DNA of 32,000 bases from Alkanindiges sp. WGS2144 (lineage in GTDB: Bacteria > Pseudomonadota > Gammaproteobacteria > Pseudomonadales > Moraxellaceae), in assembly GCF_043950625.1 (NCBI RefSeq), contig NZ_CP171007.1; one strand, written 5' to 3'. The position numbers and the translations under genes are program-made. Positions within the stretch are counted from its first letter, which is position 1. Each line of letters opens with the position of its first letter. Below are positions 1 through 30,754 of the stretch, one piece after another. The notes below the pieces were generated by a model. That model saw only the letters and a program-made list of their open reading frames with translations, was not told where the DNA came from and ran no database searches.

Positions 1-608
1 TCAGGGAACCCAGCAACCAAAAACTCATTCCTGGCTGGTTATGGATGATTTTTGGTATGCTGTTGGGGCTGTTCATTATGGTATTGCTATACCTATGGCA
101 GCCCTGGCGCCCGGCCAGCCGCCCCATTGATGCAACGCAAACTATCACTCCTGATCATAGTGATGAACAAACCAATCAGGATTATCAGTTTTATGATTTG
201 CTACCCAAGCAGCAGGTTACCCCGGTGCCCAGCGATGCAGTGCCCACGGATCCGCAAGCCGCCAATAGCAATATTATTGTAGCCCCTCCTGTTAGCGTTG
301 AGGTTCCTGATGTCAGCCCGGCACAAAACGCCGCCAATGCTGATCCAGCTGAAATTAATGAAACCACTACACTACAGTATATTTTGCAGGTCAATAGCTA
401 CCAGAACCCTGACGATGCCGATGCCCGGCGTGCTGAAATCCTGTTAGTGGGTTTACCTGCCGATGTGCGTCAGAGCAAGCTTGCTGATGGCAGTATGTGG
501 TTTCGGGTGGTATCCGGGCCATTTGCCAGTCGGGCAGAAGCTTTAAATGCCCAAAGCCTGCTGCAAAACAGTGGTATTGATTCATTAGTGGTGGAACAAC
601 GCCGCTAA
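1..608 (+). CDS. SPOR-domain cell-division / peptidoglycan-binding protein (FtsN/DedD-like), probably 5'-truncated by the window edge
   Basis: The frame stays open from nt 3 to the window edge (REPSNQKLIPGWLW precedes the first ATG at 45). It has one TM helix (MIFGMLLGLFIMVLLYLW) and a Pro/Ala/Gln-rich linker. The C-terminus is SPOR-like (YILQVNSYQNPDDADARRAEILL...WFRVVSGPFASRAEALNAQSLLQ). Stop at 606-608. Confidence 0.7.
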   Translation, partial: REPSNQKLIPGWLWMIFGMLLGLFIMVLLYLWQPWRPASRPIDATQTITPDHSDEQTNQDYQFYDLLPKQQVTPVPSDAVPTDPQAANSNIIVAPPVSVEVPDVSPAQNAANADPAEINETTTLQYILQVNSYQNPDDADARRAEILLVGLPADVRQSKLADGSMWFRVVSGPFASRAEALNAQSLLQNSGIDSLVVEQRR

Positions 609-633
609 AACCAGCTTTCCTTGAAATAAGCAA

Positions 634-656
634 GCCTGTATGAATAGCATACAGGC
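634..656. terminator. Hairpin between convergent genes (possible bidirectional terminator)
   Basis: GCCTGTATG-aatag-CATACAGGC gives a perfect 9-bp stem. The T-tract is only moderate, on the minus-strand side (TTGCTTATTTC). Confidence 0.4.
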
Positions 657-667
657 CACTGATCAGC

Positions 668-1267
668 CTAATGGGTACTATTTAAATAACCTATAATCAT
701 ACTGCTGAGCTCCTGCTTGACTTCGTCATCAGTAAATTTGGGCGGGTTCTGTGAGCAGTAATTGATGATGGTGTACAGGGTGCTATTGATCACAATGAAG
801 GCCTTGATATTAATCTTGTCCGGTGCGGTGCCCTGAAAAAACTTGCCCAATACAAATACCCAGAGTTCAAAAAAGTGGTTCTGCAAAATTTCCATGGGCT
901 TCTGGGTATTCAGCTGGTGCAAATGTCGAATGATTTCAATATAAAAACCATTATTGGCACGTAATTGCTCAAAACCAAACTCTATTGCACCACGCAACAA
1001 ATCTTCTAATTGCGAGGCACGATGGCATAAAACATACTCTTTGAGCGCCTGACCCAGTGCATGACTTTTTTGTTCCAGTAAACACTCTACAATTTCTTGT
1101 TTATTGCTAAAATACTGATAAATGGAGCCTACACCCACGCCAGATTGCTCTGAAATTTTGGGAGTAGTTAGTTCGCTTAGACCGTGCTGGGCAATATAAT
1201 CTTCGGTTACTTGTAATATCCGGCCAACCAGTTCTTTAGCACGTTGTTGCTTAGGCTGTTTACGCAT
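668..1267 (-). CDS. TetR/AcrR-family transcriptional regulator
   Basis: 199-aa ORF with an N-terminal TetR HTH (LSELTTPKISEQSGVGVGSIYQYFSNKQEI). ATG at 1267 is preceded by AGGAA 7 nt upstream. Confidence 0.9.
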   Translation of the reverse strand: MRKQPKQQRAKELVGRILQVTEDYIAQHGLSELTTPKISEQSGVGVGSIYQYFSNKQEIVECLLEQKSHALGQALKEYVLCHRASQLEDLLRGAIEFGFEQLRANNGFYIEIIRHLHQLNTQKPMEILQNHFFELWVFVLGKFFQGTAPDKINIKAFIVINSTLYTIINYCSQNPPKFTDDEVKQELSSMIIGYLNSTH

Positions 1268-1569
1268 GGTGTATTCCTAAAAATCCTTCCCAATAAGCAA
1301 ATGTAAATTCGCATTAGCTCTGTAGTAATTCAATGGCATAAATATTCATTTTTAAATTTTTTAATTCAATTAATTAAGCATAGGATTCAAAGAATTAGTT
1401 GTCATATTCTGCCAATGAGTACTTCATCTGGCTTTTTTTAAATGCATTAGATAAAACAATTATAATTTCTACATCATTTATCTGGCTGTGCTTTTATGAT
1501 GTGCTTATAAATACAGCACCCACTGATATAACAATCAATGCGTGCCGTAGATAGCTAACAACTGATGGT

Positions 1570-2418
1570 TTAGCTCGCTCGCGCCTTGCGCTGTTGCAGC
1601 TTGGAACCAAGTACCATGATTTTCTGATAACCTGACGGCAACAAACGCTGCATCAGTTCTACCATCTTGGCGTCGTTGCCGATCAGCAGGCGACGGTCAT
1701 TGTTGCGTACAGCCTGCAAAATCTGGCGGGCGGCTTCCTCTGGCGGAGTGCGCAGCAGCTTGTTAAATTCCTTGCTGGCTTTTTCCGGGTTCATGCCCAA
1801 GCTAAGAATGCTGTCATTCATGCGTGCTGCATTGGCAATATTGGTACGAATGCCTCCCGGATGCACACAGGTAGCACTGACGCCATTGTTCTGGATATCC
1901 AGTTCCTGGCGCAAGGATTCGGTAAAACCACGTACCGCAAACTTGCTGGCATTATAAGCACTCTGAGTCGGCTGTGCAGTTAGGCCAAATAGACTGGATA
2001 CATTAATAATATGCCCCTCACCAGCAGCTTTAAGATGCGGTAAAAACTCCTTGGTGCCATAAACCACGCCCCAGAAATTAATTCCCATCATCCATTCCAG
2101 CTCTTCATAGCTCATGCCTTCTACGGTACTGCCAAGCGCTACGCCTGCATTGTTAAAAATCAGGTTCACTTTGCCGTGAGCCTTCACGGTATCGTCTGCC
2201 CAGGCTTTCATGGCCTTGCGGTCAGATACGTCCAGAACCGTGGTGGTTACTTTGACCTGATAAGATTGTAAAAGCGCTGCCGTTTCAGCCAGTCCCCGCT
2301 CATTAATATCGCTTAAGGCCAGCTGTGCACCCTGTTTGGCGAGCAGTACTGCCAGTTGCTGACCAATACCCGAACCTGCGCCAGTAATGGCGGCAACTTT
2401 ATGGTTGAAGTCCTTCAT
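1570..2418 (-). CDS. Classical short-chain dehydrogenase/reductase (SDR family oxidoreductase)
   Basis: Carries TGAGSGIG (cofactor), NNAG, and the catalytic S...YNASK motif. I place the start at ATG 2418 (MKDFNHKVAAITGAG) because AGGAAAG lies 7 nt upstream. The 27 extra N-terminal residues in the ORF track (to 2499) run through the predicted promoter. Confidence 0.9.
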   Translation of the reverse strand: MKDFNHKVAAITGAGSGIGQQLAVLLAKQGAQLALSDINERGLAETAALLQSYQVKVTTTVLDVSDRKAMKAWADDTVKAHGKVNLIFNNAGVALGSTVEGMSYEELEWMMGINFWGVVYGTKEFLPHLKAAGEGHIINVSSLFGLTAQPTQSAYNASKFAVRGFTESLRQELDIQNNGVSATCVHPGGIRTNIANAARMNDSILSLGMNPEKASKEFNKLLRTPPEEAARQILQAVRNNDRRLLIGNDAKMVELMQRLLPSGYQKIMVLGSKLQQRKARAS

Positions 2419-2470
2419 GTTGAACTTTCCTAAATGAAATGTGATTAATCTAAAACCTGTATTGCTAAGC

Positions 2471-2499
2471 ACTATAATTTTGACAACGCCTATTGTCAA
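2471..2499 (-). promoter_or_regulatory. Sigma70-type promoter of the SDR gene with an embedded inverted-repeat operator
   Basis: Minus strand reads TTGACA (2499-2494), 17 nt, TATAGT (2476-2471). The inverted repeat TTGACAA-N6-TTGTCAA (2480-2499) fills the spacer and -35 region. Confidence 0.6.
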
Positions 2500-2592
2500 T
2501 AATTATTAAAACGGTGTACTGAGCTAGCATAACTGCTGAAGACAGGCTGTCGATGGCAATAGCATCCAGTTAACCTTATTTATTTGTGCCAG

Positions 2593-3564
2593 TTAAACCA
2601 GCCGCCTGATTTTAATCACCACCGCAGCAATCCGTTCAGCATCTGCATAATGTGGTTCATTAAGCTCATCGGCAAAGATATCCGGGTCAACTTCCTGATA
2701 ATGCAGGCTAAATTGCTGTTTATGAGCCTGCATAAACTCAGTCAACGCCTGACAAAGCAGATCCTGCCCGTTAGCAATCACAACGCCGGTATATAACAGC
2801 AAAGTACCGTCAGGGGATAAATAGCCCAGCGATTGCTTGATGATATTCAGGCTGAGTTCTGCACCCAGAAGGTTGCCACCATGCCGATAGAGACGCTCAG
2901 AATGGTCAATCAGATACGGCGGATTGGCGGTAATTAGCTCAAACTGTCCATTGAGCCCATCAAACAGATTGCTGTGTACTGCATGAAGGTTAGTGACCTG
3001 ATTAATGGCTGCATTAATCATGGCATATTGTAATGCCAGCGGATTAACATCCACCGCGATTACTTCGGCATGGGGTGCATAACGGGCCAGCGTCATGGCA
3101 GCCGGGGCAGCACCGCTACACATTTCAATAGCACGTTTAATCACAGGCTGATGCAATGCCAGATGTTGCTCCAGTGCATGAATAAACCGATAGGTATCCG
3201 GGCCAAAAAATACCGCAGTCTCACTATCCGTAGGATAAGCAGAATGAATAAAATACTGCTGGTTAAGCGTCGCTACCCGAATCTGGCTGCACCATAAATG
3301 CTGCTGCTGGTAAATTAGCTGATAATTTAGCAACAGCCTGAATATATTCTCCGGTATCAGGCTGGATTTAAATGGCAACGACCAGCCAAAAATATCATGA
3401 AGATTACTAGCCTGGGTTTTGCCCGTGCGCTTAAGGTACGCTGCATGACTGGTCGGACACACCGTATGAAACCCATAAGACTGATGCTGTAGCCACTGTA
3501 AAAATTGCCCGATATCCTGTTGTAGTCCCGTGACACTATGTTCTAAGGCATGTGCTTCTGTCAT
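2593..3564 (-). CDS. Class I SAM-dependent methyltransferase with NPPY catalytic motif (N-methyltransferase type); substrate unknown
   Basis: 323-aa ORF. ELITANPPY is motif IV of amino-group (N) methyltransferases such as PrmC/RsmC/N6-Mtases. EVIAVDVNP supplies the acidic motif II. Motif I is atypical (IEMCSGAAPAA instead of GxGxG). About 140 aa at the N-terminus have no motif I recognise. ATG at 3564 with AGGA upstream. Confidence 0.8.
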   Translation of the reverse strand: MTEAHALEHSVTGLQQDIGQFLQWLQHQSYGFHTVCPTSHAAYLKRTGKTQASNLHDIFGWSLPFKSSLIPENIFRLLLNYQLIYQQQHLWCSQIRVATLNQQYFIHSAYPTDSETAVFFGPDTYRFIHALEQHLALHQPVIKRAIEMCSGAAPAAMTLARYAPHAEVIAVDVNPLALQYAMINAAINQVTNLHAVHSNLFDGLNGQFELITANPPYLIDHSERLYRHGGNLLGAELSLNIIKQSLGYLSPDGTLLLYTGVVIANGQDLLCQALTEFMQAHKQQFSLHYQEVDPDIFADELNEPHYADAERIAAVVIKIRRLV

Positions 3565-3731
3565 TGCTGGCTATCCTACTGTAATTTGATTTTCAAAGAA
3601 AAAATTCTCATCCCTCAATAAAATCGCTATCTCTACCGTAACAATGCAAAGCGACCTACCACAAAACTTTACACCAGAGCAGGTCATTTAACGATGTAAT
3701 CCTGTTCAGGAATTGTAGTAGGAACAACAAC

Positions 3732-5192
3732 ATGCTGAGCTTACAAAGAAATATTCTGAATCATTTTTTCTTGGGAAAACTGCCTGATGCTGATATCAAG
3801 GCACCTCATACTTACCGCCAGTTTTATCAGGCCTTTTTGCAAGCTTATCCTGACGCTGCCACCCACCGGCAGGCAGAGCATTTTTTACAGCAGCAACTGG
3901 GCTGGGCAGCCAGACAATCGTGTGATTTACCTGAAAATCCCGATGACCTGCATCAATGGTTACAACAGCACACTGAACGCACCGGCTATGCCTATCAACA
4001 ATATTTAAAATCACGCCAACAAGGGGCACCGCGGCGCTTTTTTGCCAACAAAAGTGAAGCTCTGCTCTTCCTGCAACGGGTCGAACCCACCAAGCGCGTG
4101 GACGGGTCATGGTTATATGGCACGCTACACTCCTGGCATGATGCAGGCTGTGCTCACCTGATCCGTACCTACCTGGATGAGCTGGGCAATGGTTTATCTG
4201 CACAAAACCATGTGCTTTTATTCCAGCAACTCTTGGCCAAAGAAGGCATATCGGTAAGCAATAATCTGCCTGATGAATATTATCATCAGGGCTGTATTCA
4301 GCTGGCGCTTGGCTTGCTGGGGCAGGAATATCTACCCGAAGTGATCGGCTTTAACCTGGGCTACGAACAAATGCCGCTGCATTTACTCATTACGACGTAT
4401 GAGCTAGATGAGCTAGGCATCGATCCGTATTATTTTAGCCTGCATGTCACTGTGGACAATGCCCACAATGGTCATGCACAGCAGGCAGTGGAAGCAGTAT
4501 TTGCCATGCTGCCCCTGTTTAAGGATCGTGATGAATTCTACCAGCGTATCCGCCGCGGCTATCTACTCAATAATTTAGGGGCTTGCACCGAGCAAATTAT
4601 TAAGGAAATTGACCTCAAGCAGGCGGTGGTTGAGGTATTTCGTGACAAAGCGGTGGTGGGACAGTTTGCCCATGGCAATTATTGTCGTATGGGTGGCCGC
4701 ACCATTAATGAATGGCTGAGCAATACGGATGACATAGAGCGCTTTATTGATTTCATGCAGGAAGCCGGCTGGGTCAAGCGCCATGAAAACCCGGAAAACA
4801 GTCGATTCTGGCAGCTTATCCGTGGTGAAAAAGCGGTGATGTACGGGGTGTTCAGTCAGGCCGAACAGCAAATTATGTATGACTGGATTGCTGGCAAATG
4901 GTTAAGCAGTCCCGGGGCGCCACGTCCGCGACGTTATCGTGCGGTACACCGTCATGTCACTGATGTGATGCCATCACAAACCTTGAGCGTGCAGCAGGCT
5001 TTAAACAGCAAAAATACCGATCTGGCACATTTGGCACAAAAGCTGGTTGAACGCGATACTTCAGAACAGGCGTTTTATCTGCTGGCGCCTTATTTATCGC
5101 CTGCCCTGCACACCAGCCCGGTGGGATTATGGGCCACCCAGCAATTTTTAAAACTGTTTGATCAGGAAGCTAGCATGCCCATGCAATCCTGA
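3732..5192 (+). CDS. Heme-oxygenase-like diiron oxidase/oxygenase (HDO) superfamily protein ('iron-containing redox enzyme' family)
   Basis: 486-aa ORF with ATG 3732 preceded by AGGAA. The ligand pattern is E150-x9-H160 (YLDELGNGLSAQNH), E212 (GFNLGYEQMPLH) and H238-x3-D242-x2-H245 (HVTVDNAHNGH). This is the 3-His/3-carboxylate arrangement described for HDO enzymes (CADD, UndA, SznF class). About 120 aa at the N-terminus and about 200 aa at the C-terminus are of unknown role. Confidence 0.8.
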   Translation: MLSLQRNILNHFFLGKLPDADIKAPHTYRQFYQAFLQAYPDAATHRQAEHFLQQQLGWAARQSCDLPENPDDLHQWLQQHTERTGYAYQQYLKSRQQGAPRRFFANKSEALLFLQRVEPTKRVDGSWLYGTLHSWHDAGCAHLIRTYLDELGNGLSAQNHVLLFQQLLAKEGISVSNNLPDEYYHQGCIQLALGLLGQEYLPEVIGFNLGYEQMPLHLLITTYELDELGIDPYYFSLHVTVDNAHNGHAQQAVEAVFAMLPLFKDRDEFYQRIRRGYLLNNLGACTEQIIKEIDLKQAVVEVFRDKAVVGQFAHGNYCRMGGRTINEWLSNTDDIERFIDFMQEAGWVKRHENPENSRFWQLIRGEKAVMYGVFSQAEQQIMYDWIAGKWLSSPGAPRPRRYRAVHRHVTDVMPSQTLSVQQALNSKNTDLAHLAQKLVERDTSEQAFYLLAPYLSPALHTSPVGLWATQQFLKLFDQEASMPMQS

Positions 5193-5233
5193 CAGAAATA
5201 GAACATATAGCTGATGAACCGGTTTGCCATGAC

Positions 5234-5270
5234 ACGCGGTAATTGCCAATTCATTACCGCGTATTTTTAT
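5234..5270 (+). terminator. Rho-independent terminator of the HDO gene
   Basis: ACGCGGTAAT-tgccaattc-ATTACCGCGT gives a perfect 10-bp stem followed by ATTTTTATTCTTTT. Confidence 0.8.
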
Positions 5271-5428
5271 TCTTTTGATGACAAAGAATCATGATCCATC
5301 AACTCCAGGTCAGTTTCAGTTTATATCAGATATCAGACGGCTTGAGCAAAGATGACAGTCCGGTCACTTTGTGGCATGCTGACTGACTTCATTGTTTGAC
5401 CCATTACTGCCGAGCCAGCCATAAGCCA

Positions 5429-6235
5429 ATGAGTGAGCATTCATCCCATCCTGACAATGCAGACGCATTAACACCAGCGCATTCTGCCACAACACCGGCC
5501 TGTTCAGACGTAGAGACACCTAATCATCTCTCTGCATCCTCTAAGAGCCCTGCTGCTGTACAAAAACCTGCGGCCTCCCGACAGCGCAGCAGTCAAAGTG
5601 CCAGTCGGCGGCGTAGCTTTAAAGGCCTGAGTCTGGAACAGCGTCAAAATGAACGGCGTGAAAAACTGATTGAAGCGGGCTTGCAGATTTATGGTACACA
5701 AGGCTTTTTTTCAGTGACTGTACGGGATGTCTGTGCCGAGGCCAAACTGACCGAGCGCTACTTTTATGAATCCTTTAAGCGCAGTGAAGAGTTGTTTAAA
5801 ACTGTCTATCTGCGCCTGATTGAACAGCTACAGCAAAATATTCTGGCAGCAGTAATGCAAAGCAAGGCCGACCCACGCCTGATGGTGGAATCTGGTCTGA
5901 CTGCCCTGTTAAGGTCTTTACAGGACGACCCGCGTATGGCCCGGATTTTGTTTATTGATGCCATTTTGGTGCATGAAATGCAGGGCAATACCATTTATGA
6001 ATCCGTGGCTCGCTTTGACCGCATGATTCAGGGCTTTATGATGCTGATGTTTCCAAAAAAACCCAGCAAGGATACGGATTTGTCCTTAGTGTCCACCGGC
6101 TTAAATGGCTATGTGACCCATATTGCCATGCGCTGGGTGATCGGTGGCTTTAAGGAACCCTTTAACCAGGTGCTGGCCGCATGTCAGGTGGCTTATTTGT
6201 CTATTTTGCAATGGATGGAAAAAGCACCAGATTAG
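5429..6235 (+). CDS. TetR/AcrR-family transcriptional regulator with a long low-complexity N-terminal extension
   Basis: The TetR HTH is RREKLIEAGLQIYGTQGFFSVTVRDVCAEAKLTERYFYESF. The first ATG is at 5429; the ORF-track start at 5396 is TTG. No in-frame ATG/GTG/TTG lies closer to the HTH, so roughly 70 Ser/Ala/Pro-rich residues appear to be genuinely encoded. No obvious RBS, so the start is uncertain. Confidence 0.75.
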   Translation: MSEHSSHPDNADALTPAHSATTPACSDVETPNHLSASSKSPAAVQKPAASRQRSSQSASRRRSFKGLSLEQRQNERREKLIEAGLQIYGTQGFFSVTVRDVCAEAKLTERYFYESFKRSEELFKTVYLRLIEQLQQNILAAVMQSKADPRLMVESGLTALLRSLQDDPRMARILFIDAILVHEMQGNTIYESVARFDRMIQGFMMLMFPKKPSKDTDLSLVSTGLNGYVTHIAMRWVIGGFKEPFNQVLAACQVAYLSILQWMEKAPD

Positions 6236-6341
6236 CAATACTGGCAGATTATTGGGATAAAACGTCTGACAGTCCACCCATTGAGCAAAATATTTCAAAT
6301 TGATGATAAAAAATTTATTTTAAATGCCTTTTGCAATCAAA

Positions 6342-6375
6342 CTGTCATATTTTGGCTTTGTAATAGCTTTGTCAT
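6342..6375 (+). promoter_or_regulatory. Pho box(es) upstream of phoB (autoregulation)
   Basis: TTGTAAT-AGCT-TTGTCAT (6358-6375) has the 7+4+7 architecture of the PhoB-binding consensus CTGTCAT-AWAW-CTGTCAY. An exact CTGTCAT heptamer also sits at 6342-6348. The site is about 50 nt upstream of the phoB ATG. Confidence 0.55.
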
Positions 6376-6425
6376 ATTAAATGGCAATCGCTCACATGCA
6401 GTTGCCTGTCTTACAGGATTAAAAC

Positions 6426-7127
6426 ATGAACAATGAATATATTTTAATTGTTGACGATGAAGCGCCCATCCGTGACATGATTCAAATGGCGCTGGATATG
6501 GCTGAATTTAACAGCCAGCAGGCAATTGATGCCAGAGAAGCCTATCAAATGATTGTTGACCAGCGTCCCTGCCTGATTTTACTGGACTGGATGCTGCCCG
6601 GCGGGGTAAGTGGAGTGGATTTGTGCCGCCGCCTAAAACGTGATGAAACGCTCAATGAAATCCCTATTATCATGCTGACTGCACGTGGTGAGGAAGACCA
6701 CAAGGTTCAGGGACTGGATGCCGGTGCCGATGATTATATGACTAAACCGTTTTCTACCCGTGAGCTATTATCGCGCATCAAAGCAGTCCTACGTCGCAGT
6801 AATGCCTTAAGCAATGAAAAGCGGGTTGAAGCGGGAAAACTAGTGCTTGACCCAGTCAGCCAGCGGGTTAATTATCAGGATAAAGTCATTGAAATTGGAC
6901 CGACTGAATACCGCTTGCTGGCATTTTTTATGACTCATCCGGATCGTGCCTATACCCGCGCACAACTGCTGGATCAGGTCTGGGGCGGTAATGTGTATAT
7001 TGAGGATCGCACCATTGACGTCCATATTCGACGCCTGCGCAAGATTCTGGAACCTTATGGCGTGGACGGCTTTGTGCAGACGGTACGCGGCACGGGCTAC
7101 CGTTTTTCTACCCGCATTGATGCCTGA
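6426..7127 (+). CDS. phoB: Phosphate regulon response regulator PhoB (OmpR family)
   Basis: Receiver domain (ILIVDDE...LLDWMLPG...MLTARGEEDHKVQGLDAGADDYMTKPF) plus a winged-helix output domain (VRGTGYRF). It is followed directly by phoR and preceded by a Pho box. Confidence 0.92.
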   Translation: MNNEYILIVDDEAPIRDMIQMALDMAEFNSQQAIDAREAYQMIVDQRPCLILLDWMLPGGVSGVDLCRRLKRDETLNEIPIIMLTARGEEDHKVQGLDAGADDYMTKPFSTRELLSRIKAVLRRSNALSNEKRVEAGKLVLDPVSQRVNYQDKVIEIGPTEYRLLAFFMTHPDRAYTRAQLLDQVWGGNVYIEDRTIDVHIRRLRKILEPYGVDGFVQTVRGTGYRFSTRIDA

Positions 7128-7142
7128 CCTCACTATAATTTT

Positions 7143-8450
7143 ATGAATACCAATGCCCTGCTGATCTGGCGGGATCTGATCAAGGATTTACGCGTTTGCC
7201 TGCTCCTGCTGCTTGCTGCCGGGATGATTGGCCTGCTACTTGACGCCTTGTGGCCATGCCTGCTGATCGCACTGTTGTTATTTATTGCCCTGCAATTTCG
7301 GGCGTTTTACCGGATTTATTACTGGATTCGCTACCAGCCAGAACAAAATCCACCCGAGTTATCCGGTGTTCTGGGTGAGATTCTATTTTTACTGTATCGC
7401 TACCAGCGTCAGGAAAAGCAGGCCAAAGCCGAGTTGATGAATACCATTTATCGTGCCCAATCGTCCATTTCAGCACTACAGGAAGCAGTGGTACTGATTG
7501 ATCGTCAGCAACAGCTGGAATGGTGGAATCCAGCTGCCGAGCAAGTGCTCGGGCTGAAAGCAGTAGATGCAAGACGTCCAGTATTAAATATTATCCGGCA
7601 CCCTGATTTTATGCATTATTTTGACAATCTGAAGGATTACCCCAACGGCATCAAGCTGTCTTCCTGGGTTAAACCACAGCATTTTATTCAGTGTGAAATC
7701 ACCCGCTTTGGTGATGATGAACATTTGCTGCTGGCTTATGACATTACTCACCTGCACCGGCTGGAACAAATGCGCAAGGATTTTGTTGCCAATGTATCGC
7801 ACGAGCTGCGCACCCCGCTAACAGTGCTTAGCGGTTACTTGGAAATGTTTGGCGAACAGGATATTAACCCGCGCTGGCAGCGTGGCTTTGAACAAATGCA
7901 GCAGCAAACCCGGCGCATGAATGCACTGGTTGAAGATTTGCTGCTGTTATCACGGCTGGAAAACGAGGAGCTTGGCAGCAAGGATCAAAGCATTCGCATG
8001 GCTGCTCTATTACAGCAGCTATTTGAAGATGCCAAAGCGTACAACAGCGATTTTGGTCATCAGCTATCCTTGCATCTGGACAGCGCCTGCAACCTACTTG
8101 GTTCTGCCCATGAAATAGCCAGCGCATTTAGCAACCTGATCACCAACGCCATTAAATACACGCCTAAAGGAGGCATGATTGAAATTGGCTGGTACCATGA
8201 TGCCAAACATGGCTATTTTTATGTTAAGGACAATGGTATTGGGATTGAAGCGCATCATCTGGCCCGGCTCACCGAACGCTTTTACCGGGTAGATAATGCA
8301 CGTAGCCGGGAAGCCGGTGGCACAGGCTTGGGACTCGCTATTGTCAAACATGTACTGGCACAACACGATGCTTATCTGGATATCCAGTCTACTCCTGGAC
8401 AGGGTGCCATCTTTAAAGCCGTGTTTAACGCTTCACGCCTGGTGGCCTAG
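7143..8450 (+). CDS. phoR: Phosphate regulon sensor histidine kinase PhoR
   Basis: Two N-terminal TM segments, a PAS-like region, an H-box (FVANVSHELRTPLT), and N/G boxes (NLITNAIKYTP, DNGIGI, GGTGLGLAIVKH). Lies 15 nt downstream of phoB. Confidence 0.92.
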   Translation: MNTNALLIWRDLIKDLRVCLLLLLAAGMIGLLLDALWPCLLIALLLFIALQFRAFYRIYYWIRYQPEQNPPELSGVLGEILFLLYRYQRQEKQAKAELMNTIYRAQSSISALQEAVVLIDRQQQLEWWNPAAEQVLGLKAVDARRPVLNIIRHPDFMHYFDNLKDYPNGIKLSSWVKPQHFIQCEITRFGDDEHLLLAYDITHLHRLEQMRKDFVANVSHELRTPLTVLSGYLEMFGEQDINPRWQRGFEQMQQQTRRMNALVEDLLLLSRLENEELGSKDQSIRMAALLQQLFEDAKAYNSDFGHQLSLHLDSACNLLGSAHEIASAFSNLITNAIKYTPKGGMIEIGWYHDAKHGYFYVKDNGIGIEAHHLARLTERFYRVDNARSREAGGTGLGLAIVKHVLAQHDAYLDIQSTPGQGAIFKAVFNASRLVA

Positions 8451-8461
8451 CACGGTTGGTT

Positions 8462-8487
8462 GTGTCATTAAATGTCTATACTGTCAT
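8462..8487 (+). promoter_or_regulatory. Candidate Pho-box-like TGTC repeats upstream of the first DUF445 gene
   Basis: GTGTCAT-taa-ATGTCTA-ta-CTGTCAT contains three TGTC cores at 8463, 8473 and 8482. The spacings are 10 and 9 bp rather than the canonical 11. The last heptamer is an exact CTGTCAT. TATAAG at 8510-8515 could be a -10. Confidence 0.3.
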
Positions 8488-8553
8488 TGCCAAAAAAAAC
8501 CTCATCCTCTATAAGTAAACACACATGACTTATTATTGCAGTTGCGGTTGATT

Positions 8554-9861
8554 ATGGTTGCTTCCACTCACGCTGTACCCCAGCTAGCACGCAGCAAATC
8601 CCTGGCACAAATAGCCCTGTTCATTGCAATAGGATGCTGGGTTATTTTACTGATTTTGGTTAAGTTTATTCCGGATTATGCCTGGATTTTACATATACTC
8701 ATGCTGGCGGCTGAAGCAGGTGTGGTGGGGGGGCTGGCCGACTGGTATGCCATTACCGTGCTGTTTCGTAATCCGTTTGGCAAAATGCCGCTGCCACGCT
8801 TGTTACGCGAACATACCGAAATTATTCCACGTAACAAGAGCCGCATTGCTGAATCCATGGGCCGTTTTGTGCAGGAAAATTTCCTGTCCCCGGTTATTGT
8901 GCGCCAGTCTCTACAGCGCACTGATGTATCCCTGATGGCAGGTGACTGGCTAGCTAACCCGGCCAATGCCAGACAGATGACCGATCTGTTTCAACAGGCA
9001 GCACCACGTATTCTGGATTTTTTTGGTCAGGATGCCATTAGCGAGTTCATGCAAAAAAATATTGTGCAATGGGCCAAAAATACCGACATGCACCATTTAA
9101 GCAGCGAGCTGATCCGTGCCGTACTGGAAAATGATTTTCATGAGGATGTTCTGCAACGCGGGCTGGATACTGCCCATTTATGGGTAAAAAACAATCCGGA
9201 AAAAGCCCGTATATTGGCCACCCGTATGTTTAGTGAGCTTGGGGTAGGCACGCTGGCCTGGGGTGCAGGGTTAATTGGTATTGATGTGCAGCGCCGTATC
9301 ATTAACACGTTTATGCAAAAGGTAGAACAAATTCTGGAAAATCCGGAGCATCCCTTAAGAGTTGGCCTTGAAGAACAGGCGCAAAAGCTGATGCTGGCAC
9401 TGCGTGATCCACAATCGGTTGCTGCCCAACAGCTTAACAGCACGAAAAATGCCTTGCTGGACAGCCCAGCGGTAGTGAATTTTCTTACCGGCTCTATCGT
9501 CATTTTACGTGATGCGGTTAAACGGGATCTGCACAAGCCAGAATCTGCCATTGCCCAAAACCTGCATACTGCCATTATCCGTCTGGGCAGGAATCTTAAA
9601 ACCAGTCAGGAAGTACGCCAAGTACTCAATACGCAAATTGAACAGCTGGCGGTTAGCTTTAGTACCGATTATGCCGACAAGGTGATTCGCTATATTAGCC
9701 AGCGCATTCATGAGTGGGACTCACGGGAAATGATTGCCAAGATTGAAAGCGAAGTAGGTGGCGACTTACATATGATCCGGGTAAACGGCGTGGTCGTCGG
9801 TGCTTTCATTGGTCTAATTCTGGGTGTTATTCGCGCAATTATTGAACATATCCCTGCATAA
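8554..9861 (+). CDS. DUF445-family inner-membrane protein (YjiN-like)
   Basis: Hallmark GGLADWYAITVLFRNPFGKMPLP motif after an N-terminal TM region, with a C-terminal TM helix. I prefer ATG 8554 over the TTG at 8536. The RBS is weak in both cases. Confidence 0.8.
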   Translation: MVASTHAVPQLARSKSLAQIALFIAIGCWVILLILVKFIPDYAWILHILMLAAEAGVVGGLADWYAITVLFRNPFGKMPLPRLLREHTEIIPRNKSRIAESMGRFVQENFLSPVIVRQSLQRTDVSLMAGDWLANPANARQMTDLFQQAAPRILDFFGQDAISEFMQKNIVQWAKNTDMHHLSSELIRAVLENDFHEDVLQRGLDTAHLWVKNNPEKARILATRMFSELGVGTLAWGAGLIGIDVQRRIINTFMQKVEQILENPEHPLRVGLEEQAQKLMLALRDPQSVAAQQLNSTKNALLDSPAVVNFLTGSIVILRDAVKRDLHKPESAIAQNLHTAIIRLGRNLKTSQEVRQVLNTQIEQLAVSFSTDYADKVIRYISQRIHEWDSREMIAKIESEVGGDLHMIRVNGVVVGAFIGLILGVIRAIIEHIPA

Positions 9862-23376: not shown

Positions 23377-23452
<76 letters not shown>

Positions 23453-25337: not shown

Positions 25338-25456
25338 TGAGCTGGCGATGCCCTACTCTCACATGGCGAATGCCACACTACCATTGGCGCAACGTGGTTT
25401 CACTTCTGAGTTCGGGAAGGGATCAGGTGGTTCACACGTGCTATGGTCGCCAGCAC
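25338..25456 (-). rRNA. rrf: 5S ribosomal RNA
   Basis: The reverse complement aligns along its length with canonical bacterial 5S (GTGCTGGCGACCATAGC...CCGAACTCAGAAGTGAAAC...GAGAGTAGGGCATCGCCAGC). Ends are +/-3 nt. Confidence 0.95.
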
Positions 25457-25650
25457 AACTGGTCGATGATTGGTGGTCTTTGGTGCCACATCTCATCCTG
25501 TCCGGTTGCAGCTGATGGATATGATCCATCAGGCTAAGCAATATTACAGCAAAGGTGGTTGAGTCTGTCGATGCAATGTCTGAATCAAGCAGTTACTGAT
25601 CTGGCAGCAACAGTATGCTTGTTTAAGGTCTACAACGCTTTAGGTGTTGT

Positions 25651-28543
<2,893 letters not shown>

Positions 28544-28952
28544 ATACAACCCTAAAACGTCGTATAGCGTCTACCTTAATACCAAGAACGCTTGATTCAG
28601 TTTGCTAGTTCTCAAGTTAAATTCTATCTAGCCAACCCATCCATGAAGAATGAATTAACCAGCTAGCAATCTAACTGAGTGAACAATTTATTTCAGACTC
28701 AATTTTACCTTGCTGTTAATGAATCAATCACGATCTCGTCAATCAGTGATTATTTGTTCCGCTTTCGCAGAAATTAATAAACTATCCATTTATTAATTTC
28801 TGGGAAATTCTTTCTTTAAAAACTCAACCATTCTTTCCATGCAAGCCTACGCGCAGCATATGAGACATATATGTCGCAAGGTCAAATTCTCAGGCAAACT
28901 TAAAACACTGTTTTAAGGATTTGCTCTATCAACCACGAAGCAGTGCTTCGTG

Positions 28953-29028
28953 TGGTGGAGTCTAGGAGAGTCGAACTCCTGACCTCCTGCGTGCAAAGCA
29001 GGCGCTCTACCAACTAAGCTAAGACCCC
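28953..29028 (-). tRNA. tRNA-Ala (anticodon TGC), in the 16S-23S spacer
   Basis: The reverse complement reads GGGGTCTTAGCTTAGTTGGTAGAGCGCCTGCTTTGCACGCAGGAGGTCAGGAGTTCGACTCTCCTAGACTCCACCA, with the G3:U70 identity pair present. Confidence 0.97.
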
Positions 29029-29069
29029 TTGTCGCTGCTGCCCTACTGTCCACTTCGCATTATGCGATT

Positions 29070-29146
<77 letters not shown>

Positions 29147-29215
29147 AACGTAGTGCTTACCTTACTCATATAGAGAACAACTTGTTGTGGATTCTTACCA
29201 ACCGGTGATTATCGT

Positions 29216-30754
<1,539 letters not shown>

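What the first reader, a model, noticed from the sequence alone, without database searches (positions are those of the whole stretch)
2593..5192. Divergent NPPY-methyltransferase / heme-oxygenase-like diiron oxidase pair: candidate undescribed small-molecule N-modification cassette
Two genes diverge from a shared 167-bp control region (3565-3731).

- **Plus-strand gene (486 aa):** it carries the complete metal-ligand set of the heme-oxygenase-like diiron oxidase (HDO) superfamily, read directly from the translation: E150-x9-H160, E212, H238-x3-D242-x2-H245. HDOs (CADD, UndA, SznF, BesC and relatives) perform unusual O2-dependent chemistry such as N-oxygenation, N-N bond formation, C-C cleavage and desaturation.
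- **Minus-strand gene:** it has the NPPY motif typical of methyltransferases acting on nitrogen, an intact acidic motif II, an atypical motif I (CSGAA) and an unassigned 140-aa N-terminal domain.
- **Precedent:** streptozotocin biosynthesis uses an N-methyltransferase (SznE) followed by an HDO (SznF). This pair lacks the SznF cupin domain and has a different 200-aa C-terminal extension.

Neither product has an obvious housekeeping role. The substrate and product are unknown, and the functional link between the two genes is inference.
Basis: partly seen in the sequence, partly recalled or inferred. Interest (0 to 1): 0.72.

Follow-up and report, generated by a model that had tools for sequence, protein, structure and literature searches.

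The report
Desiccation-protein DtpC homologue with methyltransferase partner
The plus-strand gene belongs to the family of DtpC, an iron-enzyme-like protein recently shown to help Acinetobacter survive drying. The divergent methyltransferase is that family's usual, so far unreported, neighbour, which gives a concrete clue to what DtpC does.

Summary
Both genes exist as described: MTase 2593-3564 (-), HDO 3732-5192 (+), with 167 bp between them. The HDO assignment holds on three counts: Pfam PF14518 (E 3e-24), an AlphaFold model (pLDDT 90) whose best PDB matches are all HDOs, and five of the six proposed ligands being invariant. H245 is not conserved; the invariant histidine is H248.

The MTase is not a PrmC/PrmB orthologue. 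It most resembles the natural-product N-methyltransferases AerE and GenN.

The functional link is well supported. An MTase orthologue lies beside the HDO gene in 70 of 80 species-level loci, in three orientations across distant phyla, and no third gene is conserved.

The pair is not entirely undescribed. The HDO is a full-length homologue (38-40 % identity) of Acinetobacter DtpC (ABUW_2437; PLoS One, June 2026). DtpC is a desiccation-tolerance factor, redundant with catalase KatE, and it needs exactly these ligands. Its chemistry is unknown, and that paper never mentions a methyltransferase.

In some Acinetobacter the MTase sits beside the dtpC-katE operon. In Pseudomonas sp. J380 an apparent copy of the pair is co-induced by iron limitation.

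The best reading is a two-enzyme stress-protection module rather than an antibiotic-type cassette. The substrate remains unknown.

The parts
3732..5192 (+). [quoted passage not shown] The HDO core spans about residues 100-290. There is also a family-specific N-terminal helical region and a conserved, all-helical C-terminal domain of about 200 aa with no Pfam match.
   Evidence: PF14518 hits at E 2.9e-24 over residues 113-277. The AF2 model has pLDDT 89.9 and pTM 0.89. The top Foldseek PDB hits are HrmI, RohS, SznF, CADD, PolF and BesC. E150, H160, E212, H238, D242 and H248 are invariant. The protein is 40 % identical over 434 aa (E 4e-117) to the A. radioresistens DtpC-type protein at the katE locus. 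It is 38 % identical to the HDO of the Acinetobacter dtpC-katE operon in L088. An identical protein is annotated in Alkanindiges sp. WGS2144.
2593..3564 (-). Partner N-methyltransferase, 323 aa. It has a class I Rossmann core with NPPY (214-217), motif II D172 and a relaxed motif I (CSGAA, 149-153). It also carries a family-specific FFGPDTYRF segment (119-127), an N-terminal domain of about 115 aa and a conserved C-terminal beta-extension.
   Evidence: PF05175 (MTS) hits at E 1e-11. HemK-family models score far below their cutoffs, for example PrmC 63.9 against 199 bits and PrmB 55 against 230. The AF2 model has pLDDT 91.5. Foldseek ranks AerE first (E 1e-16, TMq 0.69, full length), then GenN (2e-15), then PrmC (8e-12). 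AerE's catalytic Asp141 and Asn231 align to the invariant D123 and N214. The gene is adjacent to the HDO gene in 70 of 80 loci.
3565..3731 (.). Divergent intergenic region of 167 bp holding both 5' leaders. Each start codon is preceded by AGGA about 9 nt upstream. The 45 nt before the HDO ATG, and an ACAAAACTTTACACC block, are conserved among Alkanindiges genomes.
   Evidence: The sequence is. The alignment with three Alkanindiges loci is. The inverted repeat at 3574-3586 / 3711-3723 is simply the two similar Shine-Dalgarno leaders. No promoter-like site lies inside the region and nothing is above shuffled expectation. The leader fold (z -1.3) and the double-GGA pattern are not above chance.
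5396..6235 (+). TetR-family regulator just downstream of the HDO gene. It is a possible local regulator. Its position is conserved only within Alkanindiges, and it is not part of the cross-phylum module.
   Evidence: A TetR homologue at 70-74 % identity occupies the same position in L001-L003 and in none of the other loci. NCBIfam gives only weak TetR-type hits. Any regulatory role is inference.
1570..2499 (-). SDR-family oxidoreductase downstream of the MTase gene. Its position is conserved only within Alkanindiges. It is not orthologous to the YghA-like SDRs that flank the pair in Acinetobacter and Methylobacillus.
   Evidence: It is 81-85 % identical at the same position in L001-L003. It is only 26-33 % identical to the SDRs of L081, L085 and L088. 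NCBIfam gives generic SDR hits below cutoffs.

Best explanation
The locus is a self-contained two-gene stress-protection module.

What is shown:
- The plus-strand gene encodes a member of the DtpC family of heme-oxygenase-like diiron proteins.
- The A. baumannii member of that family, acting redundantly with catalase KatE, keeps hydrogen peroxide and mutagenesis low in dried cells. It needs its metal ligands to do so.
- The minus-strand gene encodes the family's usual genomic partner, an AerE/GenN/PrmC-like SAM-dependent N-methyltransferase.

What is inferred (proposed mechanism):
- In non-growing, iron-stressed or drying cells, the methyltransferase puts a methyl group on a nitrogen of a common cellular molecule. 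The nitrogen could be an amide, amine or guanidine. The molecule is most likely a free amino acid or a similar primary metabolite, because no other biosynthetic gene, carrier or precursor peptide travels with the pair.
- The HDO loads two Fe(II) ions, captures O2 as a peroxo-diiron(III) species and oxygenates that substrate, probably at nitrogen. The order of the two steps could be reversed.
- The product then limits iron- and peroxide-mediated damage.

The fold, the ligands, the homology to DtpC and the gene linkage are shown. The stress role in this organism, the shared substrate and N-oxygenation are inferred.
For: HDO identity:
- Pfam PF14518 hits above its cutoff, the model is high-confidence, and every meaningful PDB fold match is an HDO, with the N-oxygenases HrmI, RohS and SznF first.
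- E150, H160, E212, H238, D242 and H248 are invariant.
- The RohS DEFGSGNLKRSH motif aligns to the family's EELGxGxxxxNH motif.

N-oxygenase hint:
- The invariant D124 lies 26 residues before E150, the same spacing as SznF Glu189 to Glu215. It sits on a turn (122-125) that interrupts a helix (118-121 / 126-134). This matches the marker described for HDO N-oxygenases (PMC7848743; model).

DtpC family:
- The window protein is 40 % identical over 434 aa (E 4e-117) to the A. radioresistens protein at the katE locus. It is 38 % identical to the HDO of a dtpC-katE operon in L088.
- DtpC E143, H153 and H232, which are essential by mutagenesis, correspond by spacing to E150, H160 and H238.
- The DtpC phenotype data come from PMC13232832 and bioRxiv 10.1101/2021.08.11.455981.

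Gene linkage:
- The MTase is adjacent in 70 of 80 loci: 64 co-directional (some with overlapping stop and start codons), 3 convergent and 3 divergent. The loci span Gammaproteobacteria, Betaproteobacteria and Abditibacteriota, and no third conserved gene or small ORF is present.
- The reciprocal test from the MTase finds the pair in Methylobacillus and Idiomarina.
- The MTase lies between the SDR and katE inside an Acinetobacter DtpA-KatE-DtpC cluster.
- HDO and MTase distances correlate at r = 0.95.

Expression:
- In Pseudomonas sp. J380 a 459-aa HDO gene and the MTase gene 12 bp downstream are both induced about 4.5-fold by dipyridyl.

MTase chemistry:
- AerE and GenN are the best fold matches. 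The AerE catalytic base Asp141 and the NPPF Asn are conserved as D123 and N214.
Against: - DtpC protects A. baumannii when expressed alone. In AB5075 the locus-tag order (ABUW_2435 oxidoreductase, 2436 katE, 2437 dtpC) leaves no room for the MTase at the position it holds in L088. Neither A. baumannii nor A. radioresistens appeared among the top 120 MTase homologues. The MTase may therefore be dispensable for DtpC function.
- Ten of the 80 loci lack an adjacent MTase, and only two of these are explained by contig ends. Some Acinetobacter MTase genes stand alone next to a pirin gene.
- The window has no katE, KGG or other stress gene next to the pair, and no stress phenotype is known for Alkanindiges.
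- The canonical sixth ligand position is not conserved, and I could not inspect model coordinates to confirm that H248 reaches the metal site.
- AerE's essential Tyr137 is an invariant Phe here.
- Foldseek E-values for the HDO are only about 1e-2.
- Orthology of the J380 and PA2179/PA2180 genes rests on annotation, gene size and gene order, not on sequences I compared.
Confidence: 0.5

Rival explanations
1. The two proteins share a stress programme but not a substrate. DtpC acts alone as a diiron protein that sequesters free iron or scavenges peroxide or superoxide, in a ferroxidase- or rubrerythrin-like way. The methyltransferase separately modifies a macromolecule in dormant cells, for example a Gln or Asn of a ribosomal or translation protein, or a base in rRNA.
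For: - DtpC alone restores desiccation survival in A. baumannii, and dipyridyl rescues dtpC mutants. The authors list iron sequestration and ROS scavenging as live options.
- The MTase is absent from the AB5075 dtpC neighbourhood.
- The MTase belongs to the HemK/MTS clade, whose housekeeping members methylate proteins and rRNA.
- Some Acinetobacter MTase genes are unlinked to any HDO.
Against: - Adjacency in 70 of 80 loci, with translational coupling and three independent arrangements across phyla, is stronger than is usual for mere co-regulation.
- DtpC gives no protection against acute H2O2.
- Every biochemically characterised HDO is a small-molecule enzyme with a labile cofactor, not an iron store.
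- The MTase's best structural relatives are natural-product enzymes, not PrmC.
Confidence: 0.2
2. The pair is a cryptic secondary-metabolite cassette, analogous to SznE/SznF or the fluopsin enzymes, that makes a bioactive N-N or N-O compound such as an antibiotic, toxin or signal.
For: - HDO N-oxygenases are the nearest folds.
- The natural-product N-methyltransferases AerE and GenN are the nearest MTase folds.
- The N-oxygenase-type extra carboxylate is present.
- The family's patchy, HGT-like distribution fits an accessory function.
Against: - No conserved transporter, resistance, carrier, NRPS/PKS or regulator gene accompanies the pair. The flanks differ in every lineage.
- There is no cupin domain.
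- The only genetic data for the family point to protection against desiccation and oxidative stress.
- Where the company is informative, it consists of general-stress genes.
Confidence: 0.12
3. The pair is a protein or peptide modification system. The AerE/PrmC-like enzyme N-methylates a Gln or Asn side chain of a protein. The HDO then hydroxylates that residue or oxidatively removes the methyl group, giving a stress-regulated and possibly reversible mark.
For: - AerE (peptide Asn) and PrmC (protein Gln) are the closest characterised relatives, and the catalytic Asp and the NPPY motif are conserved.
- Both proteins have large conserved extra domains that could bind a macromolecule.
- The HDO CADD acts on its own protein residues (cited in PMC13232832).
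Against: - No conserved small ORF or precursor peptide lies near the pair.
- AerE's essential Tyr137 is Phe here.
- No HDO is known to act on a separate protein substrate.
- The PrmC/PrmB equivalog cutoffs are missed by a factor of three or more.
Confidence: 0.12
4. The two genes are functionally unrelated and merely adjacent.
For: Divergent orientation in the window does not by itself imply co-function. Ten of the 80 loci lack the neighbour.
Against: The genes are adjacent in 70 of 80 loci in three orientations across phyla. Stop and start codons overlap in several lineages. Reciprocal synteny holds. The pair is co-induced in J380.
Confidence: 0.03

Closest known systems
DtpC (ABUW_2437 / A1S_1385) of Acinetobacter baumannii, desiccation tolerance protein C (Farrow, Wells & Pesci 2026, PMC13232832; Oda et al., bioRxiv 10.1101/2021.08.11.455981)
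   Same: - Both have the same full-length architecture of about 470 aa: an HDO core plus a conserved helical C-terminal domain.
- The window protein is 38-40 % identical to Acinetobacter DtpC-type proteins located at katE.
- The residues essential in DtpC (E143, H153, H232) are conserved as E150, H160 and H238.
- The DtpC authors themselves note uncharacterised homologues in Stutzerimonas and Pseudomonas, which are the window protein's closest non-Alkanindiges relatives.
   Different: - The window gene is not in an operon with katE. It is divergently paired with a methyltransferase, and no katE lies within 6 kb of any of the 80 non-Acinetobacter loci.
- I could not obtain the A. baumannii sequence itself, so the link runs through A. 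radioresistens and another Acinetobacter species.
- No phenotype is known for Alkanindiges.
SznF (with SznE) of streptozotocin biosynthesis, and the simple HDO N-oxygenases RohS and HrmI
   Same: - All share the heme-oxygenase-like fold, and these three are among the top PDB matches.
- All share the E-x9-H motif.
- The window protein has a candidate seventh carboxylate on a turn 26 residues before the bridging Glu, as described for SznF Glu189.
- The logic of a methyltransferase paired with an HDO is the same.
   Different: - Sequence identity is only 13-18 %, and phmmer finds no PDB hit at all.
- There is no cupin domain.
- The extra carboxylate is Asp, not Glu.
- The third-helix motif is H-x3-DN-x3-GH instead of H-x3-D-x2-H.
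- A C-terminal domain of about 200 aa has no counterpart in these enzymes.
- The gene is not in a biosynthetic cluster.
- Similarity of the MTase to SznE was not tested.
AerE / PoyE, iterative Asn side-chain N-methyltransferases of proteusin RiPPs (PDB 7RC2-7RC6; PMC9060474)
   Same: - AerE is the best full-length structural match (E 1e-16, TMq 0.69), and the match includes the N-terminal subdomain.
- Both share the V-[YF]-[IF]-G-P-D-[ST]-Y segment.
- The catalytic base Asp141 corresponds to D123, and the NPPF Asn231 corresponds to N214.
   Different: - AerE's essential Tyr137 (Y137F is inactive) is an invariant Phe here.
- Identity is 16-18 %.
- AerE's two insertions are not evident.
- No precursor peptide, radical-SAM epimerase or other proteusin gene lies nearby.
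GenN, the gentamicin 3''-N-methyltransferase (PDB 5U18 and others)
   Same: GenN is the second-best fold match (E 2e-15, about 300 aligned columns). It is an N-methyltransferase that acts on a small-molecule amine.
   Different: Identity is 14-15 %, and there is no aminoglycoside cluster context.
PrmC (HemK) and PrmB, protein glutamine N5-methyltransferases
   Same: All share the MTS/HemK-type Rossmann core and the NPPY motif. PrmC is the best sequence-level PDB hit for the profile (E 2e-17).
   Different: - The window MTase scores 64 against the 199-bit PrmC cutoff and 55 against the 230-bit PrmB cutoff.
- It has GPDTY where PrmC has PRPETE.
- Its N-terminal domain differs.
- It ranks below AerE and GenN structurally.

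Membership tests
Heme-oxygenase-like diiron oxidase/oxygenase (HDO) superfamily | A match to Pfam PF14518 (Haem_oxygenas_2) above the gathering threshold | tested here: met
   The score is 86.3 bits against a cutoff of 28.9, E 2.9e-24, over residues 113-277.
Heme-oxygenase-like diiron oxidase/oxygenase (HDO) superfamily | The HO-like helical bundle fold | tested here: met
   The AF2 model has pLDDT 89.9. All Foldseek PDB hits with probability of at least 0.96 are HDOs (HrmI, RohS, SznF, CADD, Npun_F6505), with TM-scores of 0.41-0.64 normalised to the target.
Heme-oxygenase-like diiron oxidase/oxygenase (HDO) superfamily | Six core metal ligands (3 His and 3 carboxylates: E...H, E, H-x3-D-x2-H) | tested here: inconclusive
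   E150, H160, E212, H238 and D242 are invariant. The canonical sixth position (245) is D, H, A, S or G. H248 is invariant and probably substitutes for it.
Heme-oxygenase-like diiron oxidase/oxygenase (HDO) superfamily | Binds two Fe ions (or Fe and Mn) and activates O2 | not testable with these tools
   This needs purified protein. The only indirect evidence is ligand mutagenesis in the A. baumannii homologue.
DtpC family (desiccation tolerance protein C) | Full-length homology to Acinetobacter DtpC, including the C-terminal domain | tested here: met
   The window protein is 40 % identical over 434 aa (E 4e-117) to A. radioresistens P0264, whose gene lies beside katE and cinA. It is 38 % identical over 439 aa to the HDO of the dtpC-katE operon in L088. 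The A. baumannii protein itself was not compared.
DtpC family (desiccation tolerance protein C) | Conservation of the residues shown to be essential (E143, H153, H232) | tested here: met
   The equivalents E150, H160 and H238 are invariant. The spacings are 10 and 78-79 in the window protein, in A. radioresistens and in the published numbering.
DtpC family (desiccation tolerance protein C) | Co-transcription with katE | tested here: not met
   There is no catalase gene in window 1-9000 or within 6 kb of any of the 80 related loci. This feature appears specific to Acinetobacter.
DtpC family (desiccation tolerance protein C) | Contributes to desiccation or oxidative-stress survival | not testable with these tools
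   This needs genetics in Alkanindiges or a pseudomonad.
HDO N-oxygenase subgroup (McBride et al. 2021) | An extra coordinating carboxylate on a beta-turn that interrupts auxiliary helix alpha-2 | tested here: inconclusive
   The invariant D124 lies 26 residues before E150, the same spacing as SznF E189 to E215. The model shows a helix at 118-121, a turn at 122-125 and a helix at 126-134. The residue is Asp rather than Glu, and coordination could not be checked.
SznF-type N-nitrosating enzymes | A C-terminal cupin domain fused to the HDO domain | tested here: not met
   There is no cupin Pfam hit, and the model is entirely helical apart from one short hairpin.
AerE/PoyE-type amide N-methyltransferases | A class I fold with an NPP[FY] motif and the catalytic Asp (AerE Asp141) | tested here: met
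   AerE is the top Foldseek hit. D123 and N214 are invariant and align to Asp141 and Asn231.
AerE/PoyE-type amide N-methyltransferases | The catalytic Tyr137 that activates the Asp (Y137F is inactive) | tested here: not met
   The aligned residue is F119, which is invariant across 37 family members.
AerE/PoyE-type amide N-methyltransferases | A proteusin precursor peptide and its associated RiPP genes | tested here: not met
   No small ORF is conserved beyond Stutzerimonas, and no radical-SAM or other RiPP gene is present.
PrmC / PrmB protein glutamine methyltransferases | A score above the NCBIfam equivalog cutoff | tested here: not met
   TIGR03534 scores 63.9 against 199.1, TIGR03533 scores 55.1 against 229.7, and TIGR00536 scores 66.1 against 115.5.
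MADS anti-phage defence (mad2 methyltransferase) | A full-length match together with partner mad genes | tested here: not met
   Only the MTase core (126-294) hits mad2, over positions 278-426 of 492 (E 1e-15). The HDO has no PADLOC hit, and no other defence genes are conserved nearby.

The most novel reading that the evidence does not exclude
DtpC-family HDOs and their partner methyltransferase together convert a primary metabolite into a previously unknown N-methylated, N-oxygenated small molecule, for example an N-methyl-hydroxamate or an N-oxide or nitrone. That molecule buffers intracellular iron or quenches peroxide in non-growing, dried cells. This would be a new class of small-molecule protectant for anhydrobiosis. 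It would be widespread in Proteobacteria and Abditibacteriota, and the HDO half would extend into fungi. The published dtpC-katE operon of A. baumannii would then be a derived arrangement.
Probability: 0.2. Interest if true: 0.85.

Novelty: new variant of a known kind. Interest (0 to 1): 0.6.

Why it matters
DtpC was reported in June 2026 as the first HDO linked to desiccation and oxidative-stress survival. Its authors could not decide between three models: iron sequestration, ROS scavenging, or synthesis of a protective small molecule.

Across the family, the dominant conserved neighbour is an AerE/GenN-like N-methyltransferase, adjacent in 70 of 80 loci. katE is adjacent in none of the 80. 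This gives a direct and inexpensive way to discriminate those models, by testing whether protection needs the methyltransferase and whether the two enzymes together make a product.

The result also moves the question out of a hard-to-handle pathogen. Pseudomonas, Stutzerimonas and Alkanindiges carry the pair as a compact operon and are easier to work with.

The practical relevance is the persistence of Acinetobacter on dry hospital surfaces. For enzymologists, this is a large HDO clade that has not been studied biochemically (about 150 clusters at 50 % identity with E below 1e-30, plus fungal relatives). It has a non-canonical third-helix ligand motif and an uncharacterised 200-aa domain.

Tried and rejected
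- Precursor peptide. I clustered all 18-110-aa ORFs within 1 kb of the pair in 71 loci. Nothing was conserved beyond closely related Stutzerimonas genomes.
- A third conserved gene. ORF clustering of the 80 loci found only lineage-specific neighbours.
- SDR as part of the module. The window's SDR is only 26-33 % identical to the SDRs beside the pair in Methylobacillus and Acinetobacter. I rejected it.
- Rosetta-stone fusion. Long relatives of 640-1028 aa proved to be fungal proteins whose extensions have no Pfam domain and no similarity to the MTase profile.
- Regulatory signal in the 167-bp region. The inverted repeat is just the two similar Shine-Dalgarno leaders. No promoter-like site lies inside the region, and counts in 2400-5500 are not above shuffled expectation. 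The leader fold (z -1.3) and the double-GGA (CsrA-type) pattern are at chance level.
- Anti-phage defence. The only hit is a generic MTase-core match to mad2.
- Sequence-level alignment of the HDO to solved HDOs. phmmer finds nothing, and the profile finds only a 45-residue stretch of RohS. Ligand superposition could therefore not be checked residue by residue, and model coordinates are not exposed by the tools.
- P. aeruginosa PA2179/PA2180. The link rests on a RAST name and on expression tables. I could not fetch the sequences, so it remains a lead and is not evidence.
- Presence of the MTase in A. baumannii and A. radioresistens. This is unresolved, because the last homology search listed only the top 120 hits.
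- The hydrophilin paper (PMC9283220) and the BfmRS paper (PMC8846317) are not held in the library.

Full report
**Observation.**
The window contains the two ORFs exactly as stated. There is a 323-aa ORF on the minus strand (2593-3564) and a 486-aa ORF on the plus strand (3732-5192), separated by a 167-bp divergent intergenic region. [quoted passage not shown] WGS2144 (Moraxellaceae). An identical MTase is annotated simply as 'methyltransferase' in the same organism.

**The plus-strand protein is an HDO, with one correction to the ligand set.**
Pfam PF14518 matches residues 113-277 at 86 bits against a cutoff of 28.9. No NCBIfam model matches, and phmmer finds no PDB sequence at all. An AlphaFold2 model built on 55 homologues is confident (pLDDT 89.9, pTM 0.89) and almost entirely helical over all 486 residues.

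Foldseek against the PDB returns only HDOs as meaningful hits. The N-oxygenases HrmI, RohS and SznF rank first, followed by CADD, PolF and BesC. Probability is 1.00, E is about 1e-2, and TM-scores to the target are 0.41-0.64.

In alignments of 17 and 55 family members, E150, H160, E212, H238 and D242 are invariant. H245 is not: it is D in 33, H in 8, A in 6, S in 5 and G in 3. H248 is invariant, including in distant fungal relatives. In the model the helix carrying H238 ends at 241, residues 242-247 form a loop and H248 starts the next helix. The family motif is therefore H-x3-D-N-x3-G-H. I could not read model coordinates, so I cannot confirm that H248 reaches the metal site.

A profile search aligns the family's YLEELGxGxxxxNH motif to RohS IDEFGSGNLKRSH, which is the E-x9-H motif.

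The SznF structure paper describes a marker of HDO N-oxygenases: an extra carboxylate (Glu189) at the tip of a beta-turn that interrupts auxiliary helix 2, 26 residues before the bridging Glu215 (PMC7848743). In the window protein the invariant D124 lies exactly 26 residues before E150. The model shows a helix at 118-121, a turn at 122-125 and a helix at 126-134. This is a suggestive match. It is not proof.

**The minus-strand protein is an N-methyltransferase of the HemK/MTS clade, but it is not PrmC or PrmB.**
It scores 64 against the 199-bit PrmC cutoff and 55 against the 230-bit PrmB cutoff. Its model (pLDDT 91.5) matches AerE best. AerE is the proteusin Asn side-chain N-methyltransferase, and the match (E 1e-16, TMq 0.69) covers the N-terminal subdomain too. 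GenN, the gentamicin 3''-N-methyltransferase, comes next (E 2e-15), and PrmC only after that (E 8e-12).

The family shares AerE's V-[YF]-[IF]-GPD-[ST]-Y segment. AerE Asp141, the base that deprotonates the acceptor amide, aligns to the invariant D123. Asn231 of the NPPF motif aligns to N214 (PMC9060474). AerE's essential Tyr137 aligns to an invariant Phe (F119), so the mechanism is not strictly AerE-like. Motif I reads CSGAA only in some Moraxellaceae members. The rest of the family has the ordinary GCGAG.

**The two genes are functionally linked.**
A scan of one genome per GTDB species returned 566 loci encoding relatives, of which I kept the best 80. TBLASTN and ORF clustering find an MTase orthologue (38-66 % identity) directly beside the HDO gene in 70 of the 80. 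The arrangements are as follows:
- 64 are co-directional, HDO then MTase, with gaps of a few to about 150 bp, or with overlapping stop and start codons. These are Pseudomonas, Stutzerimonas, Massilia, Paucimonas and Orrella.
- 3 are convergent (Abditibacteriota).
- 3 are divergent (Alkanindiges).

Of the 10 exceptions, two are cut by contig ends. The others have unrelated neighbours. Noviherbaspirillum humi, one of the exceptions, carries an MTase orthologue on a different contig.

The reciprocal test, starting from MTase homologues, finds the pair in Methylobacillus (divergent) and in Idiomarina (10-bp overlap). It does not find it in A. pecorum or A. schindleri.

No third gene and no small ORF is conserved with the pair. 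Pairwise HDO and MTase distances correlate at r = 0.95, against a maximum of 0.17 in 1000 permutations. Shared species phylogeny contributes to that figure.

**What is already known: the HDO belongs to the DtpC family.**
Literature searches for HDO plus methyltransferase found nothing on this pair. Searching the NCBI product name led to two relevant bodies of work.

1. In Pseudomonas sp. [quoted passage not shown] RAST names the latter 'HemK family modification methylase PA2179'. Both are induced about 4.5-fold by the iron chelator dipyridyl (PMC8069873). PA2178-PA2181 are hypothetical proteins in the RpoS/quorum-regulated, stress-induced PA2134-92 locus of P. aeruginosa (PMC3224232). I could not verify those orthologies by sequence.

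2. [quoted passage not shown] In June 2026 the protein was named DtpC (PMC13232832). That paper reports the following:
   - dtpC and katE form an operon, and either gene alone suffices for desiccation tolerance.
   - The double mutant accumulates H2O2 when dried and mutates more.
   - E143A, H153A and H232A each abolish protection.
   - Dipyridyl rescues dtpC mutants.
   - The biochemical activity is unknown, with iron sequestration, ROS scavenging and a protective small molecule offered as alternatives.
   - The word 'methyltransferase' does not occur in the paper.

**Direct link between the window protein and DtpC.**
The exhaustive representative search (915 clusters at E below 1e-3, 147 below 1e-30) includes Acinetobacter members. 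The A. radioresistens protein P0264 is 40 % identical to the window protein over 434 residues (E 4e-117), and the match includes the C-terminal domain. Its gene lies next to cinA and a KatE-type catalase. The 2026 paper names that species as having dtpC near katE. The residue spacings (E to H = 10; H to H = 78-79) match the published E143, H153 and H232.

In another Acinetobacter lineage (L088/L089) the gene order is: a KGG-domain DtpA-like protein, a 146-aa ORF, an SDR followed by the MTase, then KatE and the DtpC-type HDO on the opposite strand with a 63-bp gap between them, then CinA. So the MTase lies inside the desiccation cluster there. That MTase is 42 % identical to the window MTase, and that HDO is 38 % identical to the window HDO.

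By contrast, none of the 80 non-Acinetobacter loci has a catalase within 6 kb. Across the family the usual partner is the methyltransferase, and the published katE pairing looks specific to Acinetobacter.

**Caveat on the 'obligate pair' idea.**
In AB5075 the locus-tag order (ABUW_2435 'oxidoreductase', 2436 katE, 2437 dtpC) leaves no slot for the MTase. Neither A. baumannii nor A. radioresistens appeared among the top 120 homologues of the Acinetobacter MTase. DtpC alone also protects A. baumannii. So the MTase is either encoded elsewhere in that genome or is dispensable. I could not resolve this.

**Genomic context.**
Where the neighbours are informative, they are general-stress genes:
- DtpA/KGG, KatE, CinA and a YghA-like SDR in Acinetobacter.
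- A KGG protein and a YghA-like SDR in Methylobacillus.
- LigD in 15, a Zn-dependent alcohol dehydrogenase in 30 and a GCS2 carboxylate-amine ligase in 9 pseudomonad loci.

Elsewhere the flanks are unrelated: FlhA, a TonB receptor, Pol IV, asparagine-related genes and transporters. In the window the flanking SDR and two TetR genes are conserved only within Alkanindiges. The window's SDR is not orthologous to the stress-cluster SDRs. Nothing resembles a secondary-metabolite cluster.

**Interpretation.**
The fold, the conserved ligands, DtpC-family membership and the tight gene linkage are shown. That the pair shares a substrate is inferred. So is the proposal that the MTase N-methylates a small primary metabolite, that the HDO then oxygenates it (probably at nitrogen), and that the product limits iron- and peroxide-mediated damage in non-growing or drying cells.

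I give this composite model 0.5. The rivals are as follows:
- DtpC acts alone and the MTase modifies a macromolecule within the same stress programme (0.2).
- A protein-modification pair (0.12).
- Chance adjacency (0.03).

**Novelty.**
The HDO is a new member of a family that gained a name and a phenotype only in June 2026. Its conserved partnership with an AerE/GenN-like N-methyltransferase, which is the family's dominant architecture, is not in any paper I could find. I therefore rate the locus as a new variant of a known kind. It is of moderate-to-high interest because it makes the open question of DtpC's mechanism directly testable.

Noticed in passing
window 25340-30754 (- strand); tRNA at 23377-23452: A complete rRNA operon lies on the minus strand: 16S at 29216-30754, tRNA-Ile(GAT) at 29070-29146, tRNA-Ala(TGC) at 28953-29028, 23S at 25651-28543 and 5S at 25340-25454. 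A separate tRNA-Gly(GCC) lies at 23377-23452.
   Followed up: yes
proteins P0316, P0340, P0351; no window coordinates: The HDO family has fungal relatives of 640-1028 aa, at 32-40 % identity over residues ~70-390. They occur in Venturia inaequalis and in the chytrids Geranomyces and Gaertneriomyces, and all are annotated as hypothetical proteins. They keep the PTKLVDGxWL, EELGxGxxxxNHV and H-x3-DN-x3-GH motifs. Their long C-terminal extensions have no Pfam domain and no similarity to the MTase.
   Followed up: partly
L041, L042, L047, L052, L056, L074 (downstream of the MTase, overlapping); L054, L058, L062 (upstream, divergent from the HDO): A GCS2-family carboxylate-amine ligase (YbdK-like, about 387 aa) flanks the pair in nine Pseudomonas loci, in two different arrangements. 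An amide-forming ligase could supply the MTase or HDO substrate, so it may be a lineage-specific third partner.
   Followed up: partly
window 5396-6235 (+): The TetR-family regulator downstream of the HDO gene has a Ser/Ala/Pro-rich N-terminal extension of about 80 aa before the HTH, if the first start codon is used. The true start may be further downstream. The gene is conserved at this position in the three other Alkanindiges loci.
   Followed up: no
window 6426-7127 and 7143-8450 (+): A response regulator (OmpR/PhoB-like, 233 aa) and a histidine kinase (PhoR-like, 435 aa) lie immediately downstream of the TetR gene. The first-stage context called them phoB and phoR. I did not test those names, and I found no link to the pair.
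   Followed up: no
window 45-608 (+): This is a SPOR-domain protein (PF05036, E 2e-14) with a Pro/Gln-rich linker. It appears unrelated to the finding.
   Followed up: yes
HDO residues ~322-381 (window ~4695-4874): The HDO family profile gives weak hits (E 0.14 and 0.62) to the recognition-helix and wing region of two MarR-family winged-helix proteins, through the sequence ...LEEKGWIKRHqDPqeSRFW... The model does not show a canonical wing, so this may be chance.
   Followed up: partly
L004 and about 20 other Stutzerimonas loci, ~5070-5900 (between flhA and the HDO gene): About 900 bp upstream of the HDO gene are conserved across Stutzerimonas and contain no ORF of 150 aa or more. This could be a long 5' leader, comparable to the 316-nt leader reported for A. 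baumannii dtpC and the ~660-bp gap in A. radioresistens. It could also be a small gene or an sRNA.
   Followed up: no
L085-L087, 9848-11989: In A. radioresistens the DtpC-type gene is followed by an amine oxidase (432 aa) and a CMAS/Methyltransf_23-type methyltransferase (278 aa). That methyltransferase is a different class from the AerE-like partner.
   Followed up: no
window 2596-3564 (-), MTase residues 126-294: The MTase core matches the PADLOC model mad2 (a MADS defence-system methyltransferase) at E 1e-15, but only over the generic catalytic domain. The HDO has no PADLOC hit.
   Followed up: yes
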